A DNA stretch of 64,000 nucleotides. It comes from a phage. The position numbers were made by a program, and so were the translations under genes. Where the stretch lies: NCBI GenBank assembly GCA_014687725.1, contig GCA_014687725.1_4094.1; one strand, 5' to 3'. This document shows positions 15,220 through 38,846 of the stretch, piece by piece. Position 1 is the stretch's first letter. The number at the start of each line of letters is the position of its first letter. Below the pieces are notes generated by a model, which made no database searches, was not told the DNA's origin, and worked only from the letters and a program-made list of their open reading frames with translations.

Positions 15220-16008
15220 ATGAGCACTATCGATGAACTGATTCAACGGAATTCAAAATATTACCAACCATCAGAAATTGTGGATAACATTACTAAATCT
15301 GAGTTTGGACCGAACACACGCAAACTCATTCATGTAATGTCACGTGATGGCTTTAAATGTGATTGTTGTGGTGAATCAAATGTAGTATTCACTTTACACA
15401 AGCACAGTACTAAAGAACGTTATAAATTCAGACCTTATGTACTTAAAGGGAAACGCCTTGTACGCATGACGTTAGACCATAATGTACTGGACTGTCTTCA
15501 GGGCGGTAATGATAAAGAGAACATGACTGCACTGTGTGAAGATTGTAACGCATTACGCCAGCATAAGTTTGCTGAATACAGTGAGTTTAAACACTGGTAT
15601 CATAACGCGGATCGTTCAATCGAGCCTGACGTCAACTACTGCTTCATTGAGTACATTAAGAATGCCAAAGATACATACATTCTTAAATCAATGTCACCTA
15701 TTACCGTGTTTCCTGAGAACCTATTCACTACATTAAAGAATAGTTTTATTGTAGGTGATATTGATGCATTCAAGTATTTTGACAAAGGTGCAAAACATTT
15801 TGAAATTCAATGTCTTAGTACTGCACTATGTGAACTCATTAAAATTTACATAAAAGAGTATTTGGGTATTGACAATGTACGTGTACCAGAGTATACTTTT
15901 TCTATTGAATTCGATTGTGAATCAATCAAAGAGTTTGGAATTCTTTTCAATAAACAAATAGAACTTGCAATTCAACACGAAATCAAGTACTATACTACTA
16001 ACATTTAA
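15220..16008 (+). CDS. HNH-family endonuclease (homing-endonuclease-like), 262 aa
   Basis: Cys pairs CDCCG and CEDCN flanking DHNVLDCLQGGNDKENMTALC (HNH beta-beta-alpha-metal motif). Confidence 0.7.
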   Translation: MSTIDELIQRNSKYYQPSEIVDNITKSEFGPNTRKLIHVMSRDGFKCDCCGESNVVFTLHKHSTKERYKFRPYVLKGKRLVRMTLDHNVLDCLQGGNDKENMTALCEDCNALRQHKFAEYSEFKHWYHNADRSIEPDVNYCFIEYIKNAKDTYILKSMSPITVFPENLFTTLKNSFIVGDIDAFKYFDKGAKHFEIQCLSTALCELIKIYIKEYLGIDNVRVPEYTFSIEFDCESIKEFGILFNKQIELAIQHEIKYYTTNI

Positions 16009-22412: not shown

Positions 22413-22604
22413 ATGTTGATTTATCAAGGTGATAATATTCGTGTTATGCAGCATCCCTACTTACAAATCTTTGATGTGCAGCAGTATATGGAAGGTGATG
22501 ACCCAAGAACCTATGGTCGTAAGTATGATTACTTCACTGTAAAGCAGTGTAACAATATTAACGAAGTACGACAATTAGTTCAAGAACTTCAAAACAAAGG
22601 TTGA
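22413..22604 (+). CDS. hypothetical protein (63 aa)
   Basis: AAGGA RBS before internal ATG; IYQGD motif shared with previous ORF. Confidence 0.4.
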   Translation: MLIYQGDNIRVMQHPYLQIFDVQQYMEGDDPRTYGRKYDYFTVKQCNNINEVRQLVQELQNKG

Positions 22605-22630
22605 CTTCGGTCAGCCTTTTTTGTTATAAT
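22599..22630 (+). terminator. terminator hairpin GGTTGAC-TTCG-GTCAGCC plus T-run; TTGACT in stem with TATAAT 18 nt downstream (terminator-promoter cassette)
   Basis: Hairpin 22599-22616, T-run 22617-22622, TATAAT 22625-22630; overlaps stop codon at 22602-22604. Confidence 0.7.
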
Positions 22631-28691: not shown

Positions 28692-28698
28692 TAATAAA

Positions 28699-28732
28699 AG
28701 GGTTGACTTCGGTCAGCCTTTTTTGTTATGAT
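28699..28732 (+). terminator. terminator-promoter cassette
   Basis: Hairpin 28701-28718, T-run 28719-28724, TATGAT 28727-28732. Confidence 0.65.
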
Positions 28733-32898: not shown

Positions 32899-32933
32899 AA
32901 GGGTTGACTTCGGTCAGCCCTTTTTGCTATAAT
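32899..32933 (+). terminator. terminator-promoter cassette (GGGTTGAC-TTCG-GTCAGCCC, T5, GC-TATAAT)
   Basis: Hairpin 32901-32920, T-run 32921-32925, TATAAT 32928-32933. Confidence 0.75.
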
Positions 32934-32961: not shown

Positions 32962-33477
32962 ATGACACGCATTAACTTAGTACACGTTAAAGAACTTGCT
33001 GACCAACATCTGATGGCTGAATATCGTGAACTCCCACGTGTATTTGGTGCTGTACAAAAACACGTTCAAGCACGTAAGCGTGTACGTGATTTCAAAATTA
33101 ACAGTACTTATCTGTTAGGTTCAGGTCATGTGACATTCTTTTACGACAAGTTGCTGTACTTACAGAAGCGTCATATCGATATTGTTAACGAATGTTTGCG
33201 TCGTGGTATGAAGATTCAAAACACTGAAGTAAACGACATTAGCGGCTTCCCTGCTGAGTTTTGTAATGACTACGTACCAACGGAGTCAGAGATTAAAATG
33301 TCTCGTGATCGTTTGATTGAGAAGCTCCAGATGAAGCCTACGTGGTATAAGTTTACTGATGTTGAATGTCCACAGTACGTTAAAGATATGCAGAACGTAA
33401 GTAGTAAGAACGAATCTAGTACTGATATGTTCGACGAAATTGAAGAACAAATCAAAGATGAAATGAATAATTATTAA
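32962..33477 (+). CDS. denV: pyrimidine dimer DNA glycosylase / AP lyase (T4 endonuclease V family) with C-terminal extension
   Basis: N-terminus [31 protein letters not shown]...RVRDFKI...[10 protein letters not shown] closely matches recalled T4 endonuclease V; 171 aa. Confidence 0.9.
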
Positions 33478-33816: not shown

Positions 33817-34176
33817 ATGGCATCTTTAAGTGAAATCGCAGAATACAACCCACTAACAATCTCAACAATTCAACGTACAAAAACTTTTTATTTCCGTCCT
33901 GCTGATGGATGGAAACGTGGAATGAATGGTGACTATCGAGTACTGGAAGATTCACTAATCGAGCGTATCAACTCTGAACTACAGAAGTATGAAGGTGTTA
34001 AAGTTGTGCGTTCAACTTCTCGTTATTTTGAGTACTACATTGAGTCTTCAACTGTAAATGAAAACTCATCATTCTCGGTGGACAACACTGATATTCTTCG
34101 TAATGCTGTTGGTCTTTTATGCAGGATTGCAGAAGAAATTGGATTAACTATCACCACAATGAGTGAGTTAGAATAA
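33817..34176 (+). CDS. hypothetical protein (119 aa)
   Basis: ORF followed by terminator. Confidence 0.55.
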   Translation: MASLSEIAEYNPLTISTIQRTKTFYFRPADGWKRGMNGDYRVLEDSLIERINSELQKYEGVKVVRSTSRYFEYYIESSTVNENSSFSVDNTDILRNAVGLLCRIAEEIGLTITTMSELE

Positions 34177-34180
34177 CATA

Positions 34181-34215
34181 AAGGGTTGACTTCGGTCAGC
34201 CCTTTTTGCTATAAT
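34181..34215 (+). terminator. terminator-promoter cassette
   Basis: Hairpin 34183-34202, T-run, TATAAT 34210-34215. Confidence 0.75.
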
Positions 34216-34241
34216 TATTTTATCGAAACGAGAGGTAATAC

Positions 34242-34475
34242 ATGAAACTATCTTTTATACGTTTAGCAGAATTCTTCGGTACTGATATTATTACTTTACA
34301 ACAAATTGCAGACAATACTTCATTAAGTACACAAGAAGTACTTGACTTGGATGTAATTAAGTGCGATAATACTTCCATCGATTACAAAGAAGGTCTTGTC
34401 GAAAAAGATAAGATTCAGGCTAAGATTAATGGTGCTGGACGGGTTCAGTACTGGAAAGGAGTTTTAAGTAAATGA
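34242..34475 (+). CDS. hypothetical protein (77 aa)
   Basis: ORF downstream of cassette. Confidence 0.45.
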   Translation: MKLSFIRLAEFFGTDIITLQQIADNTSLSTQEVLDLDVIKCDNTSIDYKEGLVEKDKIQAKINGAGRVQYWKGVLSK

Positions 34476-35896
34476 AAATTTATATTGATAAATTTGGAAC
34501 GACTTATGAATATTATGATTATACACATTATAATTCATATATACAAAAAAATCATAACCAAATGTCACCTTATTTGCATTATGAAGATTTAATGGAACTA
34601 TTCTCTAAAAATTTAAATTCTATTAAATTTATTGGTTTTAAAGATCCAACATGGAAAAGTTCACATACGCATGTGTATTTTGAATATGATAATATGGTAT
34701 ATGAACATTCAATATCAAATATCAAAACAAAATTCGCTGATCATAGATATAAACCAGGTAGAATATGTAGAACCTTGGAACAAATTATAAATGAGTCCAT
34801 TTATATATTTAAAAAATATGATAAATTTAATTTTCATAGCATTGCATCATTTAATGGAGCACGAACTATAATCAATTATACAATTGAAGGACGTGAAAGA
34901 ATATTTTCTATATCATTCAATTCATTAATAAAAGATTTTAAAGGGGGAAGCCCATGTTATTCATATGAAGAAGTAGAAAATATATCTATAAAAAAATTAA
35001 ATGAACATAATTTGAGATTTATCTCAATTAGTAAATTTAATGGTGTGTTTAGTTGTATTGAATATGAACAACCAACTCAGAAAGGAAAAAAATATGTTGA
35101 TTTTAATATATTAATCTATAATGAATGGAAAGGTAATCTACCGAATATAACTAATGAAGAGGTGAATAATCGAATTTCAGAAAAAATGAAAAAACTAAAT
35201 ATCAATGAATATGAAATTGTAGAATATAACAGTACTAGGAGCATGGTTGAATATACAGTTGATGATATTTCATATACAACTAGTTACGATAAGATTATGC
35301 ATCCAACTTGGAAAGGTAATCCAAGATATACAAAAGAAAGAATAATAAAATTGTCGAAAAAATATTGCAAGGGTAAAAAATTTCAATTTAATAAAATAAT
35401 TGGTAATGTTAAAGGAATTAATACTATCATTGAATTAGAACTTGAAAATGGTATGTTTATATATCCAAAATTTATACAATTAAAAGGAGGTTCTGACTTT
35501 AATACATCCACTGATGGTAAGATTTTAACAGAAATAATTTATCCTTTGTTCGACAATTATATCACACAAAAACGTTTTGAAAATTGTAGAAATCCTGAAA
35601 CTGGATACTTGTTGCCATATGATTTGTATGTTCCAGAATTTAATTTATTATTAGAAAAAGATGGAGTGCAACATTACAATCCAACAGCATATTTTAATAA
35701 AACATATGAATCATATTTGAAATTGAGAGAGAGAGATGAATTTAAAAACAAATATGCCATATCAAATGGTTATAATTTCATGCGAATAGCAGATTATGAA
35801 GATCATGAAAAAATATTGAAATCTTTCCTTAAACTCATTGAAGAGAATCCAGGAAAGCAAATTGTGCAGATCTATGGTGAAGTACAAATTATCTAA
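34472..35896 (+). CDS. putative PD-(D/E)xK (Vsr-like) endonuclease with N-terminal repeated modules; homing-endonuclease-like
   Basis: C-terminal YDLYVPEFNLLLEKDGVQHY ... RDEFKNKYAISNGYNFMRIADYE; N-terminal roughly 50-aa repeats; Lys/Asn-rich. Confidence 0.5.
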   Translation: MKIYIDKFGTTYEYYDYTHYNSYIQKNHNQMSPYLHYEDLMELFSKNLNSIKFIGFKDPTWKSSHTHVYFEYDNMVYEHSISNIKTKFADHRYKPGRICRTLEQIINESIYIFKKYDKFNFHSIASFNGARTIINYTIEGRERIFSISFNSLIKDFKGGSPCYSYEEVENISIKKLNEHNLRFISISKFNGVFSCIEYEQPTQKGKKYVDFNILIYNEWKGNLPNITNEEVNNRISEKMKKLNINEYEIVEYNSTRSMVEYTVDDISYTTSYDKIMHPTWKGNPRYTKERIIKLSKKYCKGKKFQFNKIIGNVKGINTIIELELENGMFIYPKFIQLKGGSDFNTSTDGKILTEIIYPLFDNYITQKRFENCRNPETGYLLPYDLYVPEFNLLLEKDGVQHYNPTAYFNKTYESYLKLRERDEFKNKYAISNGYNFMRIADYEDHEKILKSFLKLIEENPGKQIVQIYGEVQII

Positions 35897-35901
35897 AACA
35901 A

Positions 35902-35936
35902 AAGGGTTGACTTCGGTCGGCCCTTTTTGCTATAAT
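35902..35936 (+). terminator. terminator-promoter cassette (variant GTCGGCCC arm)
   Basis: Hairpin 35904-35923, T-run, TATAAT 35931-35936. Confidence 0.7.
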
Positions 35937-35964: not shown

Positions 35965-36735
35965 ATGACCAGAGAAGCACGTAGCATTCAAATCCAGAAA
36001 AACTTCAACTCCATGATGGTTGCTCTTGAGTGTTTGCTCGACGATAGCAGTACTGTAAAAAGTATGGTTGTCAGCGGTGCACCTGGTGTTGGTAAGACTT
36101 ACACCCTGTCACAACGCCTCCAGAAAGCTCATGACGCAGCAGAATGGAACGTAGCCACTATCAGTGGTAAGATGACTACTCTTGCTCTGTATGAAGTTCT
36201 GTACAAGAATCGTCACAGCACTAATGTATTAGTACTTGATGATATGGATAGCATCTTTGAATCAGAAGATGGTATGAACCTACTTAAAGCTGTTTTGGAT
36301 AGTGGTAAGCGTACTGTATCTTATATGACTAGCTCTAAGTACTTGAGCACTAACGGCATTCCTAATAGCTTTGATTTTAATGGTCGCATCGTATTCATTA
36401 CTAACAAAGATTTAGCGTTAGATGCTAAAGCTAAAACTAAAATGTCTGCTCATTATGCTGCTCTTATGTCTCGTTCTGTGTACGTGGATTTACAGATTCA
36501 GACTAAAAGTGATATCATGATTCATATTGAAAATGTAATGACTAAGACTAATATTCTTGCATCTAAAGGTGTTAACAGTAACGGCAGTAAAGCAATTCTG
36601 AACTGGATGTTAAAACATGAAGATAATCTTCGTGCACCATCCCTGCGTATGCCTTTGTTGATTTCAGCAGTATATAACAACAATCCGTATGATTGGGAAG
36701 AACAATGTGAAAACTTGTTCCTTGAGAAAATCTAA
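35965..36735 (+). CDS. P-loop NTPase (AAA-like ATPase)
   Basis: Walker A SGAPGVGKT, Walker B-like VLVLDDMD. Confidence 0.65.
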   Translation: MTREARSIQIQKNFNSMMVALECLLDDSSTVKSMVVSGAPGVGKTYTLSQRLQKAHDAAEWNVATISGKMTTLALYEVLYKNRHSTNVLVLDDMDSIFESEDGMNLLKAVLDSGKRTVSYMTSSKYLSTNGIPNSFDFNGRIVFITNKDLALDAKAKTKMSAHYAALMSRSVYVDLQIQTKSDIMIHIENVMTKTNILASKGVNSNGSKAILNWMLKHEDNLRAPSLRMPLLISAVYNNNPYDWEEQCENLFLEKI

Positions 36736-36802: not shown

Positions 36803-37144
36803 ATGCTTGAGTTTTTTAATTCAGATACAATGCTTGGTATCACGCTAATTTACATGTTTGTATTTTTGTGTTATCATTCAATTGTAATTAGTCTGTGGTA
36901 TTTTAAAAGGAAAATTGTTTTTAAATTGTATTCGGATGATAATGTAGTCTTAGTTTTATATAGTATTATCCAAGGTGGGTTTATTTTATTTGGTGTGATG
37001 ACATATGCGATTTACATGTTACAAATTGATAATACACCACACATTACACAATATCTTGTGTTTTCAGGTCTAATCGTGTGGTTGTTGGTGTGTAGCATGT
37101 ACTTTATTATTAAAGCTCGTGATAGAATTAAAGGGGATTTCTAA
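36803..37144 (+). CDS. small membrane protein family B, member 1
   Basis: WYFKRKIVFKLY motif, hydrophobic helices, C-terminal RDRIKGDF. Confidence 0.55.
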   Translation: MLEFFNSDTMLGITLIYMFVFLCYHSIVISLWYFKRKIVFKLYSDDNVVLVLYSIIQGGFILFGVMTYAIYMLQIDNTPHITQYLVFSGLIVWLLVCSMYFIIKARDRIKGDF

Positions 37145-37482
37145 TGTTAACATTCTTTAAGTCAGATACAATGCTTAGTATTACTTTGATTTATCTGTTT
37201 GGTTTTTTCTTTTATCATGCACTAGTTGTAGTACTATGGTATTTTAAAAAGAAAATTGTTTTTAAACTGTATCCAGTGAGGAATTCATCACTAGTTCTTT
37301 ACACACTTGTTCAAGGTTTGTTTGCAATTGTTGGTCTTATGGCACACTTAATTTATTGTGCTAATCCTCACTTGAACTCAATCTCACAATATATTGTATT
37401 CTTTGGGTTGTTCATTTGGTTAGTTGTATACTTAATCCATCTCATTATTCATGGTAGAGATAAAATTCGCGGAGACTTCTAA
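37144..37482 (+). CDS. small membrane protein family B, member 2
   Basis: Near-duplicate of member 1 (MLTFFKSDTMLSITLIY...RDKIRGDF). Confidence 0.6.
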   Translation: MLTFFKSDTMLSITLIYLFGFFFYHALVVVLWYFKKKIVFKLYPVRNSSLVLYTLVQGLFAIVGLMAHLIYCANPHLNSISQYIVFFGLFIWLVVYLIHLIIHGRDKIRGDF

Positions 37483-37829
37483 TGTTTGAAGCTTATCTTG
37501 AGTTTTTAAGGAGTAGTCCAGTTGCACATTCAATTGCAGGGATTATTCTAACAGGTTATGTAACATTTTGGGTAGTTATGTTTCTAGGATGGTATTTTAA
37601 ACGACAATTCTATAAGCGTAATGGTGAAGATTTTATGAATTCTTTCATTAATCAATCGTTGTTTGCATCAACATTGATTGCATGTATTGTGGCTGTTCTA
37701 GCCGGAAAAGCACTACCTGCTTTTTCAGTCGTTTATGGAACAATTGGTATGATATGTGTAGTTTTTCACTTGATCATTAAACTTTGTTGTGTTATGATTG
37801 ACCTTCGAAACAAGATACCGGAGGAATGA
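37482..37829 (+). CDS. small membrane protein family B, member 3
   Basis: WYFKRQFYKRNGEDF motif, C-terminal LRNKIPEE. Confidence 0.55.
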   Translation: MFEAYLEFLRSSPVAHSIAGIILTGYVTFWVVMFLGWYFKRQFYKRNGEDFMNSFINQSLFASTLIACIVAVLAGKALPAFSVVYGTIGMICVVFHLIIKLCCVMIDLRNKIPEE

Positions 37830-38164
37830 TGGAATATTTTTTACACTTACTGCCGTGGTATATGAAAGTTAGTACCATGTACTATATTATTAGTGCTGGA
37901 TTCTACTTTCTGATGTGGTTCTTTAAACGACCAATTTCAGTATTCATCGCTGATAACATGCTGCAATTAAAATTACACGCATGGTTTGGTCTGGCGATGA
38001 TTATGCCTATTATTCACTACTCAATGATTAGTAGAGGTTTCCGTTCTAATGGTGAACCAATTGTATTAGTATTCTATTGGGGTTCAACTATTGCATATGT
38101 AAGTTTGTTGTTGTTCCCAGTCGTTCATAAGTTACGTGCTAAAGTTCCTGATGCGAGGTACTAA
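37826..38164 (+). CDS. small membrane protein family B, member 4
   Basis: WFFKRPISVFI motif, C-terminal LRAKVPDARY. Confidence 0.55.
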   Translation: MMEYFLHLLPWYMKVSTMYYIISAGFYFLMWFFKRPISVFIADNMLQLKLHAWFGLAMIMPIIHYSMISRGFRSNGEPIVLVFYWGSTIAYVSLLLFPVVHKLRAKVPDARY

Positions 38165-38478
38165 TGGATATAGTAACATTGATTTACACGTTGTATTCAT
38201 TCTATTTCATTATGTGTTGGGTTGGATTTTTATTTGTACTCAAGATGTTTGATTATGTTGAAAAACAGATAAAAGAATTTTGTATTCCTTTTATCGGTTC
38301 AACCATTATTAGTGTTTCTTGTGTGTATTTTTTGGTTTTTGATCCACCAGATAACACTGCAATGATTGACTTGATGTTACTACCAACAACTGTTACTTTT
38401 TTATGTAGTCTGATGCCGCCGATTAGCCGTGGACTAACAGAATTTAGACGCAATCAAAAGCGTAAACGAGGGATGTAA
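38164..38478 (+). CDS. small membrane protein family B, member 5
   Basis: Hydrophobic helices, basic tail RRNQKRKRGM. Confidence 0.5.
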   Translation: MDIVTLIYTLYSFYFIMCWVGFLFVLKMFDYVEKQIKEFCIPFIGSTIISVSCVYFLVFDPPDNTAMIDLMLLPTTVTFLCSLMPPISRGLTEFRRNQKRKRGM

Positions 38479-38846
38479 TGGAAATTGCTCTTATTATCTT
38501 AACTGCTATGTTGTTTATTAGTACTGTGGTTATAATTGGTAAATTCTTTTGTGTATCATTTTTAGAAACGGTATACGATGAAATTGCTGATGATTATGAA
38601 CTACAAGCCGGATTTTTCATTACGTATTGGCTTAGTTTATTTTGTCTAGTCATTGCTTGGATTTTACATATCTTTAAATGGGGTATGGTAGACGGTGATC
38701 CTATTATGGCAATTATTGTTCTAGTGTTTGGTATCCTTGGTGGTGCAGTGCATAATCTAATGGTTATCTGGCAAACTGTTCAATATGTTTTGGTTCCCTA
38801 TTTCGAAAAGATGCACAGTACAATTAAAAAACGTAAACGAGGTTAG
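38478..38846 (+). CDS. small membrane protein family B, member 6
   Basis: Hydrophobic helices, basic tail IKKRKRG. Confidence 0.5.
   Translation: MEIALIILTAMLFISTVVIIGKFFCVSFLETVYDEIADDYELQAGFFITYWLSLFCLVIAWILHIFKWGMVDGDPIMAIIVLVFGILGGAVHNLMVIWQTVQYVLVPYFEKMHSTIKKRKRG

What the first reader, a model, noticed from the sequence alone, without database searches (positions are those of the whole stretch)
34472..35896. Large nuclease-like ORF with internal repeats and a Vsr-like PD-(D/E)xK C-terminus
The 474-aa protein ends with YDLYVPEFNLLLEKDGVQHY...RDEFKNKYAISNGYNFMRIADYE, matching the D...E-x-K plus R-D...G-x-x-x-R pattern of Vsr-like endonuclease domains. Its N-terminal part contains several roughly 50-aa repeats that could be DNA-binding modules. 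Together with the HNH endonuclease at 15220 this points to mobile homing-endonuclease-like genes in the region.
Basis: inference. Interest (0 to 1): 0.45.

Follow-up and report, generated by a model that had tools for sequence, protein, structure and literature searches.

The report
Free-standing Vsr-like phage homing endonuclease
This gene of a jumbo E. coli phage encodes what is most likely a selfish "homing" DNA-cutting enzyme, with a Vsr-type nuclease head behind five repeated DNA-binding-like modules; it is a fairly ordinary member of a widespread, already described kind.

Summary

The window comes from an Asteriusvirus (121Q/PBECO4-like jumbo coliphage). The gene behaves as a mobile ORF:
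- It is present in only 3 of 50,697 phage records.
- It is ~99.6-100% identical in phage JNE01, whose flanks are only 55-70% identical.
- It is precisely absent from Salmonella phage SD-6_S16.
- Other nuclease ORFs replace it in the same slot in G17, PBECO4, phAPEC6 and EJP2.
- It has the lowest GC content in the window.

This is a new member of a known kind. No cleavage site or activity is shown here. The adjacent P-loop NTPase gene is my inferred target.

The parts
34176..34215 (+). Upstream copy of a combined terminator/promoter element. It has a UUCG-loop hairpin plus a U-run, and the -35 TTGACT lies inside the stem. After an 18-nt spacer comes a TG-extended -10 TATAAT. It drives the small ORF and the nuclease gene.
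   Evidence: Exact 35-nt element at 34181-34215. Hairpin -18.3 kcal/mol, z -5.7. Promoter match 11/12 with TG. Phage SP27 has one copy where this window has two copies flanking the two genes.
34242..34475 (+). Small conserved ORF (77 aa, phrog_34150, function unknown). Its 3' end carries the Shine-Dalgarno sequence (AAGGAG) of the nuclease gene. Its stop codon overlaps the nuclease start (ATGA). It forms the left homology arm of the slot.
   Evidence: It is 81-100% identical in 29 Asteriusvirus records, whichever nuclease follows it. All alleles are identical up to ...AAGGAGTTTTAAGTAA and diverge at the nuclease ATG.
34472..35896 (+). Nuclease gene (474 aa plus stop): a putative free-standing homing endonuclease.
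   Evidence: GC is 24.8% against 34.6% for the window, the lowest of all 1425-nt windows.
34565..34759 (+). Repeat R1 (aa 32-96), a cysteine-free CapR-like module.
   Evidence: Model: helix 37-47, strands 52-56, 67-72 and 75-80, helix 81-89; pLDDT 57-73. Similar first modules occur in EJP2 gp481 (P0002) and the G17 allele.
34760..34951 (+). Repeat R2 (aa 97-160).
   Evidence: Module HMM hit in register, i-E 0.0047. Model pLDDT 88-91: helix 102-115, three strands, helix 149-156.
34952..35140 (+). Repeat R3 (aa 161-223).
   Evidence: It gives the best internal match, to R4 (score 64, offset 63). The model is not confident here (pLDDT < 45).
35141..35323 (+). Repeat R4 (aa 224-284).
   Evidence: Module HMM hit in register, i-E 0.0015. 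Model pLDDT 80-89: helix 228-241, three strands, short helix.
35324..35497 (+). Repeat R5 (aa 285-342), the module directly in front of the nuclease head.
   Evidence: It aligns in register with a Cys-containing module of Klebsiella phage Muenster gp550, within one HSP that runs on through the nuclease domain (E 3e-28). HMM hit i-E 0.0033. pLDDT 81-88.
35504..35893 (+). Vsr-like nuclease domain (aa 345-474). Conserved residues with their codons: D348, D384 (35621-35623), E395 (35654-35656), D397, H401 (35672-35674), D422 (35735-35737) and K425 (35744-35746).
35822..35893 (+). C-terminal tail SFLKLIEENPGKQIVQIYGEVQII (helix plus beta-hairpin). It is almost invariant among otherwise ~50% identical nucleases of related jumbo phages. 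It is also conserved at the DNA level: the last ~150 nt are 86% identical in G17, JP4 and Sharanji. It is either part of the right recombination arm or a functional element such as a dimerisation surface.
35897..35936 (+). Downstream copy of the terminator/promoter element. It terminates the cassette and promotes the NTPase gene.
   Evidence: 1 mismatch; -16.8 kcal/mol.
35965..36735 (+). Conserved P-loop NTPase gene (256 aa, phrog_1250), the right flank of the slot and my inferred candidate target gene. A patch at 36156-36285 carries 11 third-codon-position substitutions private to the lineage that has this nuclease.
   Evidence: The 70%-identical orthologue in Klebsiella phage Muenster also has a Vsr-like nuclease gene next to its 5' end.

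Best explanation
The ORF encodes a free-standing (not intron- or intein-borne) homing endonuclease of the Vsr-like branch of the PD-(D/E)xK superfamily. Among characterised homing endonucleases, the nuclease head is closest to the EDxHD family, whose prototype is I-Bth0305I.

Shown here:
- The C-terminal 130 aa have a Vsr-like fold with every family-invariant residue intact.
- The N-terminal 340 aa are five tandem ~62-aa alpha-beta3 modules that occupy the place of CapR/treble-clef zinc-finger arrays in relatives but lack the zinc ligands.
- The ORF sits as a precise ORF-sized insertion between the last sense codon of a conserved small gene and a terminator/promoter element.
- It is co-transcribed with that small gene and translationally coupled to it.
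- The slot is polymorphic among Asteriusviruses: empty, this ORF, or other nuclease ORFs.
- The ORF has recently moved between genomes that are otherwise 55-70% identical around it.

Inferred mechanism: during co-infection the repeat array binds a long asymmetric site in the nuclease-less or differently occupied allele of a related phage. That site is most likely in or near the 5' third of the adjacent P-loop NTPase gene. The nuclease head, possibly as a dimer as in I-Bth0305I, uses D384, E395/D397 and D422 for Mg2+ and H401 as general base to cut the DNA. Recombinational repair from the nuclease-bearing genome then copies the ORF into the broken genome. The conserved small ORF on the left, and the gene's 3' tail plus the terminator/promoter on the right, serve as homology arms. 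The private silent substitutions at 36156-36285 would protect the carrier genome from its own enzyme.
For: Fold:
- AF2 model pLDDT 95.4.
- Foldseek: 1vsr and 1cw0 are the top two hits, prob 0.97-0.98.
- The PDB profile search has AbaSI's Vsr-like domain as best hit, E 0.047.
- Relatives hit DUF559, DUF5889, DUF2726 and PvuRts1I_N.

Catalytic set:
- D384, E395, H401, D422 and K425 are invariant in 50 and in 93 relatives.
- They map onto the EDxHD composite motif, which corresponds to Vsr E25, D51, H64, H69 and D97 as defined in PMC3239194.

Modules:
- Repeat statistics.
- In-register hits of a 331-module HMM to R2, R4 and R5.
- The Muenster HSP.
- The same helix plus three-strand pattern in four of the five repeats.
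- Full-length Foldseek alignments to viral proteins named homing endonuclease, treble clef zinc finger or CapR homology domain, E down to 1e-16.
- CapR binds DNA (PMC8096241). Repeated CapR/DUF723/DUF4379 arrays are typical of phage HEGs (PMC10448857).

Mobility:
- Only 3 records carry the gene.
- In JNE01 the cassette is ~99.6-100% identical while the flanks drop to 55-70% exactly at the terminator/promoter elements.
- The gene is precisely absent from SD-6_S16. In SP27 both the small ORF and the nuclease are absent.
- Different nuclease ORFs start at the same nucleotide in G17, PBECO4, phAPEC6, E9.1 and EJP2.
- GC is 24.8%, the minimum of the window.
- A nuclease of the same kind lies beside the orthologous NTPase gene in another genus.
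- PHROG 9084 'homing endonuclease', 7e-14. GenBank annotators already call the gene a homing endonuclease.
Against: - No cleavage, target site or super-Mendelian inheritance is shown. Everything about the target is inference.
- The window protein itself has no Pfam hit and no PDB sequence hit. The family profile does not reach I-Bth0305I by sequence at E <= 10.
- The link between the repeats and CapR modules is weak by sequence: hhalign probability 20% and HMM scores of 3-5 bits.
- The zinc ligands that CapR needs for DNA binding are absent (PMC8096241).
- R3 is modelled with pLDDT < 45.
- D441 replaces a Tyr conserved in at least 90% of relatives. The helix-1 acidic residue is Asp, not Glu.
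- In JNE01 the identity break coincides with the repeated ~50-nt terminator/promoter elements and there is no co-conversion of flanks. Ordinary homologous recombination at these elements could therefore move the cassette without any nuclease action.
Confidence: 0.75

Rival explanations
1. The gene is a domesticated or weaponised nuclease rather than a selfish homing element. It cuts DNA of competitors (co-infecting phages, satellites, or the host chromosome) to the benefit of the phage, as the HEG-derived Odn does in ICP1. Its patchy distribution would then reflect an arms race.
For: The catalytic residues are intact. HEG-derived domains are known to be co-opted in phage-satellite conflicts (PMC10448857; PMC8096241). 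Several different nucleases are kept in the same expression slot behind a conserved small gene. That could mean the slot's function is selected.
Against: Empty alleles exist in viable phages. One allele is split by a frameshift (E9.1), which suggests the gene is dispensable and decays as HEGs typically do. The low GC, ORF-precise indel and recent horizontal transfer fit a selfish element. No satellite or host target is known.
Confidence: 0.12
2. The cassette is a passive 'moron-like' insert. It moves only by ordinary homologous recombination between the repeated terminator/promoter elements and the conserved small ORF. The protein is inactive or decaying, or acts only as a DNA-binding regulator, like CapR.
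For: The identity breakpoints in JNE01 coincide with the terminator/promoter repeats. Five copies of the element lie in the window and it recurs in many jumbo phages. Three deviations from relatives fit a decaying protein: the zinc ligands of all five modules are lost, a >=90% conserved Tyr is replaced by D441, and R3 is poorly modelled.
Against: All five family-invariant nuclease residues are retained, the ORF is intact in 3 phage genomes plus one metagenomic cluster, and the nuclease domain is modelled at pLDDT 95. The left boundary of every allele is the nuclease start codon itself, not the upstream terminator/promoter repeat. In SD-6_S16 the nuclease ORF alone is missing. Recombination between the terminator/promoter repeats alone cannot produce either pattern.
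Confidence: 0.1
3. The protein is a Vsr-type mismatch-repair or modification-dependent restriction nuclease (like Vsr, or like PvuRts1I/AbaSI) that acts on damaged or modified DNA, in keeping with the denV repair gene 1 kb upstream.
For: Vsr is the best structural match. AbaSI and PvuRts1I also appear. denV lies at 32962-33477.
Against: Sequence identity to Vsr is only 13-14%. The equivalent of Vsr's FTHGCFWHHH stretch here is LEKDGVQHY, without the Cys/His cluster or the Trp (the Vsr residues are from PMC3239194 and my own knowledge). There is no SRA-like domain as in AbaSI; the partner domains are homing-endonuclease-type modular arrays. Repair genes are not sporadically present or absent, and they are not replaced by unrelated nucleases.
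Confidence: 0.03

Closest known systems
EDxHD homing endonucleases (prototype I-Bth0305I of Bacillus phage 0305phi8-36; the family also includes T-even phage Hef) - PMC3239194
   Different: - I-Bth0305I is intron-encoded and 266 aa long, and it uses two NUMOD2/HTH motifs. This protein has five CapR-like alpha-beta3 repeats instead.
- The motif here is E-[YF]-D-G-x-Q-H, with an additional invariant Glu (E395) and Lys (K425) and different spacing.
- A sequence profile of the family does not detect 3R3P at E <= 10, so this is at best a distant sister lineage.
- An extra C-terminal helix plus hairpin tail is present.
E. coli Vsr very-short-patch repair endonuclease (1VSR, 1CW0)
   Different: Identity is 13-14%. 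Vsr's Zn-binding Cys/His cluster and intercalating Trp residues are absent. Vsr has no DNA-binding repeat array, is a chromosomal repair gene, and nicks T:G mismatches.
T5orf172/GIY-YIG-type phage HEGs with repeated CapR, DUF723 or DUF4379 zinc-finger arrays (ICP1 gp165/gp174, T5 Orf141; CapR of PLE) - PMC8096241, PMC10448857
   Same: The architectural logic is the same: tandem ~60-aa DNA-binding modules followed by a C-terminal nuclease head. These are also free-standing genes at boundaries of genetic exchange, with domain shuffling. Relatives of this protein carry bona fide CapR modules (P0005: PF21817, E 3e-37, five copies). Alleles in the same slot (PBECO4, phAPEC6) pair such modules with a different C-terminal head.
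   Different: The nuclease head here is Vsr-like, not T5orf172. All five modules lack the CxxC...CxC ligands and do not reach Pfam thresholds.
Allelic replacement of free-standing HEGs in T-even phages (mobE/hef, mobC/segH; Sandegren et al. 2005, cited from my own knowledge and as ref. 24 of PMC3239194)
   Same: Different nuclease genes occupy the same intergenic slot in related phages, with some genomes empty.
   Different: The phage group (Asteriusvirus), the flanking genes and the nuclease types are different. Nothing has been shown experimentally here.

Membership tests
Vsr-like branch of the PD-(D/E)xK nuclease superfamily (Vsr, DUF559, RAP, PvuRts1I-N, I-Bth0305I) | The alpha/beta restriction-endonuclease-like core in its Vsr variant | tested here: met
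Vsr-like branch of the PD-(D/E)xK nuclease superfamily | Conserved catalytic Asp (Vsr D51), His (H69) and Asp (D97) equivalents | tested here: met
   D384, H401 and D422 are invariant in 50 and in 93 relatives. Equivalence is by motif order and secondary structure. A residue-level superposition could not be inspected.
Vsr proper (mismatch repair endonuclease) | Zn-binding Cys/His cluster and intercalating Trp residues for T:G recognition | tested here: not met
   The region reads LLEKDGVQHYNPTAYF, with no Cys cluster and no Trp. Identity to Vsr is 13-14%.
Canonical PD-(D/E)xK | A literal (D/E)-x-K on the third core strand | tested here: not met
   The strand reads E395-K396-D397. K396 is Y or F in relatives. 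The invariant Lys is K425, on the following helix.
EDxHD homing endonucleases (I-Bth0305I) | Composite motif E...D...x...H...D (I-Bth0305I E170, D196, N208, H213, D222) | tested here: met
   D348 (Glu in most relatives), D384, D397, H401 and D422. The first position is a conservative Glu-to-Asp change and the spacing differs.
EDxHD homing endonucleases (I-Bth0305I) | Detectable sequence homology to family members | tested here: inconclusive
EDxHD homing endonucleases (I-Bth0305I) | N-terminal NUMOD2/HTH DNA-binding motifs | tested here: not met
   The N-terminus consists of five alpha-beta3 repeats of the CapR-like type. No HTH or NUMOD family was found by Pfam.
Homing endonuclease genes in general | Sporadic presence/absence at a fixed site among close relatives, with evidence of horizontal spread | tested here: met
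Homing endonuclease genes in general | Site-specific cleavage of the gene-less allele and gene conversion into it | not testable with these tools
   This needs in vitro cleavage mapping and phage crosses.
CapR homology / treble-clef zinc-finger DNA-binding modules (PF21817, PF14311, PF05265) | A significant match to the family profile | tested here: not met
   The window protein has no Pfam hit at E <= 1. hhalign to CapR modules of relatives gives probability 20%, E 1e-3. A custom module HMM hits R2, R4 and R5 in register, but at only 3-5 bits. Relatives do match (P0005, 3e-37).
CapR homology / treble-clef zinc-finger DNA-binding modules | The four Cys/His zinc ligands (CxxC...CxC) | tested here: not met
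   None of the five repeats has the ligand set. By contrast, 323 of 331 modules of relatives have at least 3 of the 4 ligands.
CapR homology / treble-clef zinc-finger DNA-binding modules | The same position in the architecture and the same secondary-structure pattern | tested here: met
   R5 aligns with a Cys-bearing module of Muenster gp550 within one HSP. Four repeats show the helix plus three-strand pattern. Foldseek gives full-length alignments to treble-clef and CapR-named viral proteins.
HNH endonucleases (the label of PHROG 559) | HNH/beta-beta-alpha-Me motif | tested here: not met
   There is no Pfam HNH hit, and the fold is Vsr-like. The PHROG label is a misnomer for this protein.

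The most novel reading that the evidence does not exclude
The five cysteine-free ~62-aa repeats may be a zinc-independent descendant of the CapR/treble-clef module that still reads DNA in a modular way, with one module per short stretch of bases. A homing endonuclease would then recognise a long target through an array of metal-free alpha-beta3 units. This variant has not been described, and it could serve as a simple, redox-insensitive scaffold for programmable DNA binding fused to a naturally separable Vsr-like cleavage head.
Probability: 0.2. Interest if true: 0.55.

Novelty: new member of a known kind. Interest (0 to 1): 0.28.

Why it matters
The finding corrects database labels. The gene is a Vsr-like nuclease, not an HNH nuclease, and in some records it is annotated only as 'hypothetical protein'.

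It also documents a clean natural example of an ORF-precise nuclease slot in jumbo coliphages. All the states are available in sequenced, culturable phages: an empty slot, this gene, a sister Vsr-like gene, T5orf172-type genes, and a frameshifted remnant. That makes homing, allele competition and target-site immunity directly testable in phage crosses.

The nuclease head belongs to a very large family, with about 20,000 clusters at 50% identity. That family has no dedicated Pfam model matching this protein and almost no biochemistry beyond I-Bth0305I.

The cysteine-free modules raise a modest structural question: how does a zinc-finger-derived DNA-binding module work without zinc? None of this changes current concepts.

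Tried and rejected
- Direct Pfam scan of the protein: only sub-threshold noise (CzcE, LRR).
- phmmer against PDB sequences: nothing.
- An 8-sequence profile against PDB: ankyrin/DARPin false positives caused by the 'NGYNFIRIAYYEDH' stretch, plus a weak Avs2 hit. I disregarded these.
- A 50-sequence profile against PDB: only AbaSI, at E 0.047. I-Bth0305I was not found.
- The search for homologous proteins: only 8 hits because of its word filter. The exhaustive search was needed.
- hhalign of the five repeats against CapR modules: in register but only 20% probability. BLASTP of the N-terminal half against P0006 was not significant.
- The afdb50 fold library was unavailable. I used BFVD instead.
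- The simple terminator scan missed the UUCG hairpins. Folding showed them.
- I considered that the small upstream ORF belongs to the mobile unit, because SP27 lacks both genes. I rejected it as obligatory. SD-6_S16 keeps the small ORF without the nuclease, and the small ORF is conserved in front of every allele.
- I considered a second Vsr-like gene in the window. There is none.
- I considered a functional link to the HNH ORF at 15220. Nothing supports one beyond both being nuclease genes.
Full report
**Observation**

The ORF 34472..35896 (+) exists as described. It starts with ATG, encodes 474 aa, and ends with the quoted YDLYVPEFNLLLEKDGVQHY...RIADYE sequence. Its ATG overlaps the stop codon of a 77-aa ORF at 34242..34475 (ATGA), and an AAGGAG lies 10 nt upstream of the ATG.

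By DNA similarity the window comes from an Asteriusvirus, a 121Q/PBECO4/G17-like jumbo coliphage. The gene is ≥99.6% identical in only three of 50,697 phage records: SHEFM2K, BAU.Micro_ELP-22 and vB_EcoM_JNE01. Two of those records already label it 'homing endonuclease'.

**C-terminal domain**

- The protein itself has no Pfam hit and no PDB sequence hit.
- PHROGs place it in phrog_559 (labelled 'HNH endonuclease', 3e-15) and phrog_9084 ('homing endonuclease', 7e-14, aa 362-449).
- A profile of aa 345-474 plus seven close relatives, searched exhaustively, finds about 19,970 50%-identity cluster representatives at E≤1e-3 and 3,824 at ≤1e-10. In most of them the match lies at the C-terminus of a 200-600 aa protein.
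- Across 50 and across 93 relatives, the invariant columns are D384, E395, H401, D422 and K425. G398 and Q400 are nearly invariant. The family signature is LPFDFY...E-[YF]-D-G-x-Q-H...R-D-x-I-K.
- Individual relatives weakly match Pfam DUF559, DUF5889, DUF2726, PvuRts1I-like_N and RAP. As I recall, these are all Vsr-like members of the PD-(D/E)xK clan.
- The best PDB sequence for the profile is the Vsr-like domain of AbaSI, at E 0.047.
- An AlphaFold2 model of aa 345-474 is very confident (pLDDT 95.4, pTM 0.88).
- Foldseek also puts 1vsr and 1cw0 first, followed within the top five by PvuRts1I and AbaSI.

Taylor et al. (PMC3239194) define the EDxHD homing-endonuclease family by the composite motif E170, D196, N208, H213 and D222 of I-Bth0305I. 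These correspond to Vsr E25, D51, H64, H69 and D97. Here the corresponding set is D348 (Glu in most relatives), D384, D397, H401 and D422. There is no literal E-x-K. The strand reads E395-K396-D397, and the conserved lysine, K425, sits on the next helix. One deviation should be kept in mind: D441 replaces a Tyr that is conserved in at least 90% of relatives.

**N-terminal repeats**

Self-comparison shows five tandem units with a period of about 62 aa, not about 50: aa 32-96, 97-160, 161-223, 224-284 and 285-342. No shuffle out of 500 reaches either the best pair score or the periodic sum.

Close relatives carry tandem zinc-finger modules of about 60-65 aa in the same position. These match Pfam CapR homology domain (P0005: 3e-37, five copies), DUF4379 (treble clef) and DUF723.

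The evidence that the window's repeats derive from these modules is consistent but weak by sequence:
- The BLASTP HSP with Klebsiella phage Muenster gp550 (3e-28) runs without a break from R5 into the nuclease domain. It aligns 'PTWKGN...' of the window protein with 'PKCSGN...' of gp550.
- An HMM built from 331 modules of 110 relatives hits R2, R4 and R5 exactly at the repeat boundaries, but at only 3-5 bits.
- hhalign is in register at 20% probability.
- The full-length AF2 model (mean pLDDT 75.7) gives R2, R4 and R5 pLDDT 80-91, R1 57-73 and R3 below 45. Four repeats show the same helix, three strands and short helix.
- Foldseek against BFVD aligns nearly the whole model (370-570 columns, E down to 1e-16) with phage and giant-virus proteins. 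Their names include homing endonuclease, treble clef zinc finger, zinc-ribbon, CapR homology domain and DUF2726.

The repeats lack the zinc ligands entirely, whereas 323 of 331 modules of relatives keep at least three of the four. CapR is an experimentally shown sequence-specific DNA binder whose cysteines are required (PMC8096241). Repeated CapR/DUF723/DUF4379 arrays are a recognised feature of phage homing endonuclease genes (PMC10448857). DNA binding by the cysteine-free array here is therefore an inference.

**Genomic anatomy and mobility**

The small ORF and the nuclease gene lie between two copies of a combined terminator/promoter element, AAGGGTTGACTTCGGTCAGCCCTTTTTGCTATAAT, at 34181-34215 and 35902-35936. 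Three more copies occur in the window. Each copy forms a UUCG hairpin (-18.3 and -16.8 kcal/mol) followed by Us, and contains TTGACT-18 nt-TG-TATAAT.

The slot exists in several states among related phages:
- Phage SP27 has a single copy of the element and neither gene.
- Salmonella phage SD-6_S16 keeps the small ORF, but the sequence passes directly from ...GTTTTAAGTAAA into AAAGGGTTGAC. The indel is therefore the nuclease ORF almost to the nucleotide, window ~34473 to ~35899.
- G17 and Sharanji carry a 372-aa protein with the same Vsr-like head but a different N-terminus. Identity to the window protein is 53% over the last 109 aa, and the final 25 aa are identical.
- EJP2 carries a 365-aa relative.
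- PBECO4 (379 aa) and phAPEC6 (628 aa) carry canonical zinc modules with a different C-terminal head (phrog_681).
- E9.1 carries a frameshift-split copy of the phAPEC6 type.
- 121Q carries yet other content.

All alleles are identical up to ...AAGGAGTTTTAAGTAA and diverge at the nuclease start codon.

In JNE01 the segment ~34240-35900 is 99.6-100% identical to the window. Identity falls to 55-70% on both sides within about 50 nt, at the terminator/promoter elements. This shows recent horizontal transfer between divergent genomes.

The ORF has 24.8% GC against 34.6% for the window. No other 1425-nt window is as low.

**Possible target (inference)**

The downstream gene (35965-36735) is a conserved P-loop NTPase. 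The nuclease-bearing window and ELP-22 are identical across this flank. Relative to SP27, G17, phAPEC6, PBECO4 and 121Q, the lineage carrying this nuclease has 11 private substitutions within 36156-36285. All are at third codon positions, in the Walker-B-encoding stretch. There are no private substitutions in the next 130 nt.

In Klebsiella phage Muenster (Alcyoneusvirus), the 70%-identical orthologue of this NTPase also has a Vsr-like, module-bearing nuclease gene at its 5' side.

These observations fit either target-site immunity polymorphisms or a co-conversion tract, as known for free-standing HEGs of T-even phages. They do not prove a target.

**Mechanism**

The fold, the conserved residues, the modular architecture, the expression context, the slot polymorphism and the horizontal transfer are shown. 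The following is inferred:
- The repeat array recognises a long site in non-carrier alleles.
- The Vsr-like head cleaves with D384, E395/D397 and D422 as metal ligands and H401 as base, possibly as a dimer as in I-Bth0305I.
- Recombinational repair copies the ORF into the cut genome. The small ORF serves as the left homology arm. The conserved 3' tail (the last ~150 nt, 86% identical even in the G17 allele) plus the terminator/promoter serve as the right arm.

I put about 0.75 on this reading. The rivals are:
- A weaponised or domesticated nuclease (0.12).
- A passive cassette moved by recombination at the repeated regulatory elements, with an inactive or purely DNA-binding protein (0.10).
- A repair- or modification-dependent nuclease (0.03).

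**Comparison and novelty**

The protein works like an EDxHD/Vsr-like homing endonuclease and has the architecture of CapR-array HEGs. It meets the fold and catalytic-motif criteria of the EDxHD family. It does not have the NUMOD/HTH N-terminus, and no sequence-level link to I-Bth0305I was detected.

It is best called a free-standing Vsr-like homing endonuclease of a large, poorly characterised sister lineage: a new member of a known kind. The cysteine-free modules are the only unusual feature. Only one such gene lies in the window. The ORF at 15220-16008 is an HNH-type nuclease by PHROGs, but nothing connects the two genes. Interest is low to moderate.

Noticed in passing
window 22596-22630, 28698-28732, 32899-32933, 34181-34215, 35902-35936: A 35-nt combined terminator/promoter element occurs five times on the + strand; none is expected by chance. 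It is a UUCG hairpin whose stem contains the -35 TTGACT, followed by a U-run and TG-TATAAT. A 34-45 nt core is 95-100% identical in very distant jumbo phages: Serratia BF, Pectobacterium CBB, Erwinia pEa_SNUABM, Klebsiella K64-1, Aeromonas phage 65 and a Vibrio phage. Such conservation of a regulatory cassette across genera is striking, and the copies act as recombination boundaries.
   Followed up: partly
slot between the small ORF and the NTPase gene in L002 (G17), L004 (phAPEC6), L005 (E9.1), L006 (PBECO4), L009 (121Q), L010 (EJP2), L003 (SP27), L011 (SD-6_S16): The same slot holds at least five different contents in related phages. These include a frameshift-split nuclease in E9.1 (449 + 193 aa against 628 aa in phAPEC6) and two kinds of empty site. 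The proteins are mosaics: G17 shares its N-terminal 90 aa with PBECO4 and its C-terminal head with the window protein.
   Followed up: partly
window 36156-36285 (inside the P-loop NTPase gene 35965-36735): There are eleven third-codon-position substitutions private to the phages that carry this nuclease. They cluster in 130 nt encoding the Walker-B region, with none in the next 130 nt. SD-6_S16 is mosaic: it is window-like up to ~36111 and common-type after that.
   Followed up: partly
L007 (Klebsiella phage Muenster) 238-2085: A related Vsr-like nuclease with Cys-containing modules (gp550) lies head-to-head with the 70%-identical orthologue of the window's NTPase gene. The nuclease-NTPase neighbourhood therefore recurs in another genus, in a different orientation.
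   Followed up: partly
window 36803-38846: Six consecutive + strand ORFs of 104-122 aa are tightly packed or overlap by a few bases. All are hydrophobic and membrane-protein-like. The first two (MLEFFNSDTMLGITLIYMF... and MLTFFKSDTMLSITLIYLF...) have near-identical N-termini and both end in ...GDF; the other four have different termini. It looks like a tandem paralogue array of small membrane proteins.
   Followed up: no
window 15220-16008 (+): This 262-aa ORF matches PHROG HNH endonuclease families strongly (phrog_35175, 1e-187). It matches Pfam HNH and HNH_5 only below threshold (E ~0.02). It is a second nuclease gene in the window, and I did not examine it for presence/absence polymorphism.
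   Followed up: partly
window 32962-33477 (+): A homologue of T4 endonuclease V (denV, pyrimidine-dimer glycosylase) lies 1 kb upstream, as annotated in the related records. In JNE01 the gene order between denV and the cassette is rearranged: the 119-aa ORF is relocated and only 76% identical.
   Followed up: no
window 35822-35893 and proteins P0002-P0018: The last ~24 aa (SFLKLIEENPGKQIVQIYGEVQII) are almost invariant among nucleases that are otherwise about 50% identical. The model shows a helix plus beta-hairpin that most of the wider family lacks. Selection (for example for dimerisation) and repeated recombination in the 3' end are not distinguished here.
   Followed up: no
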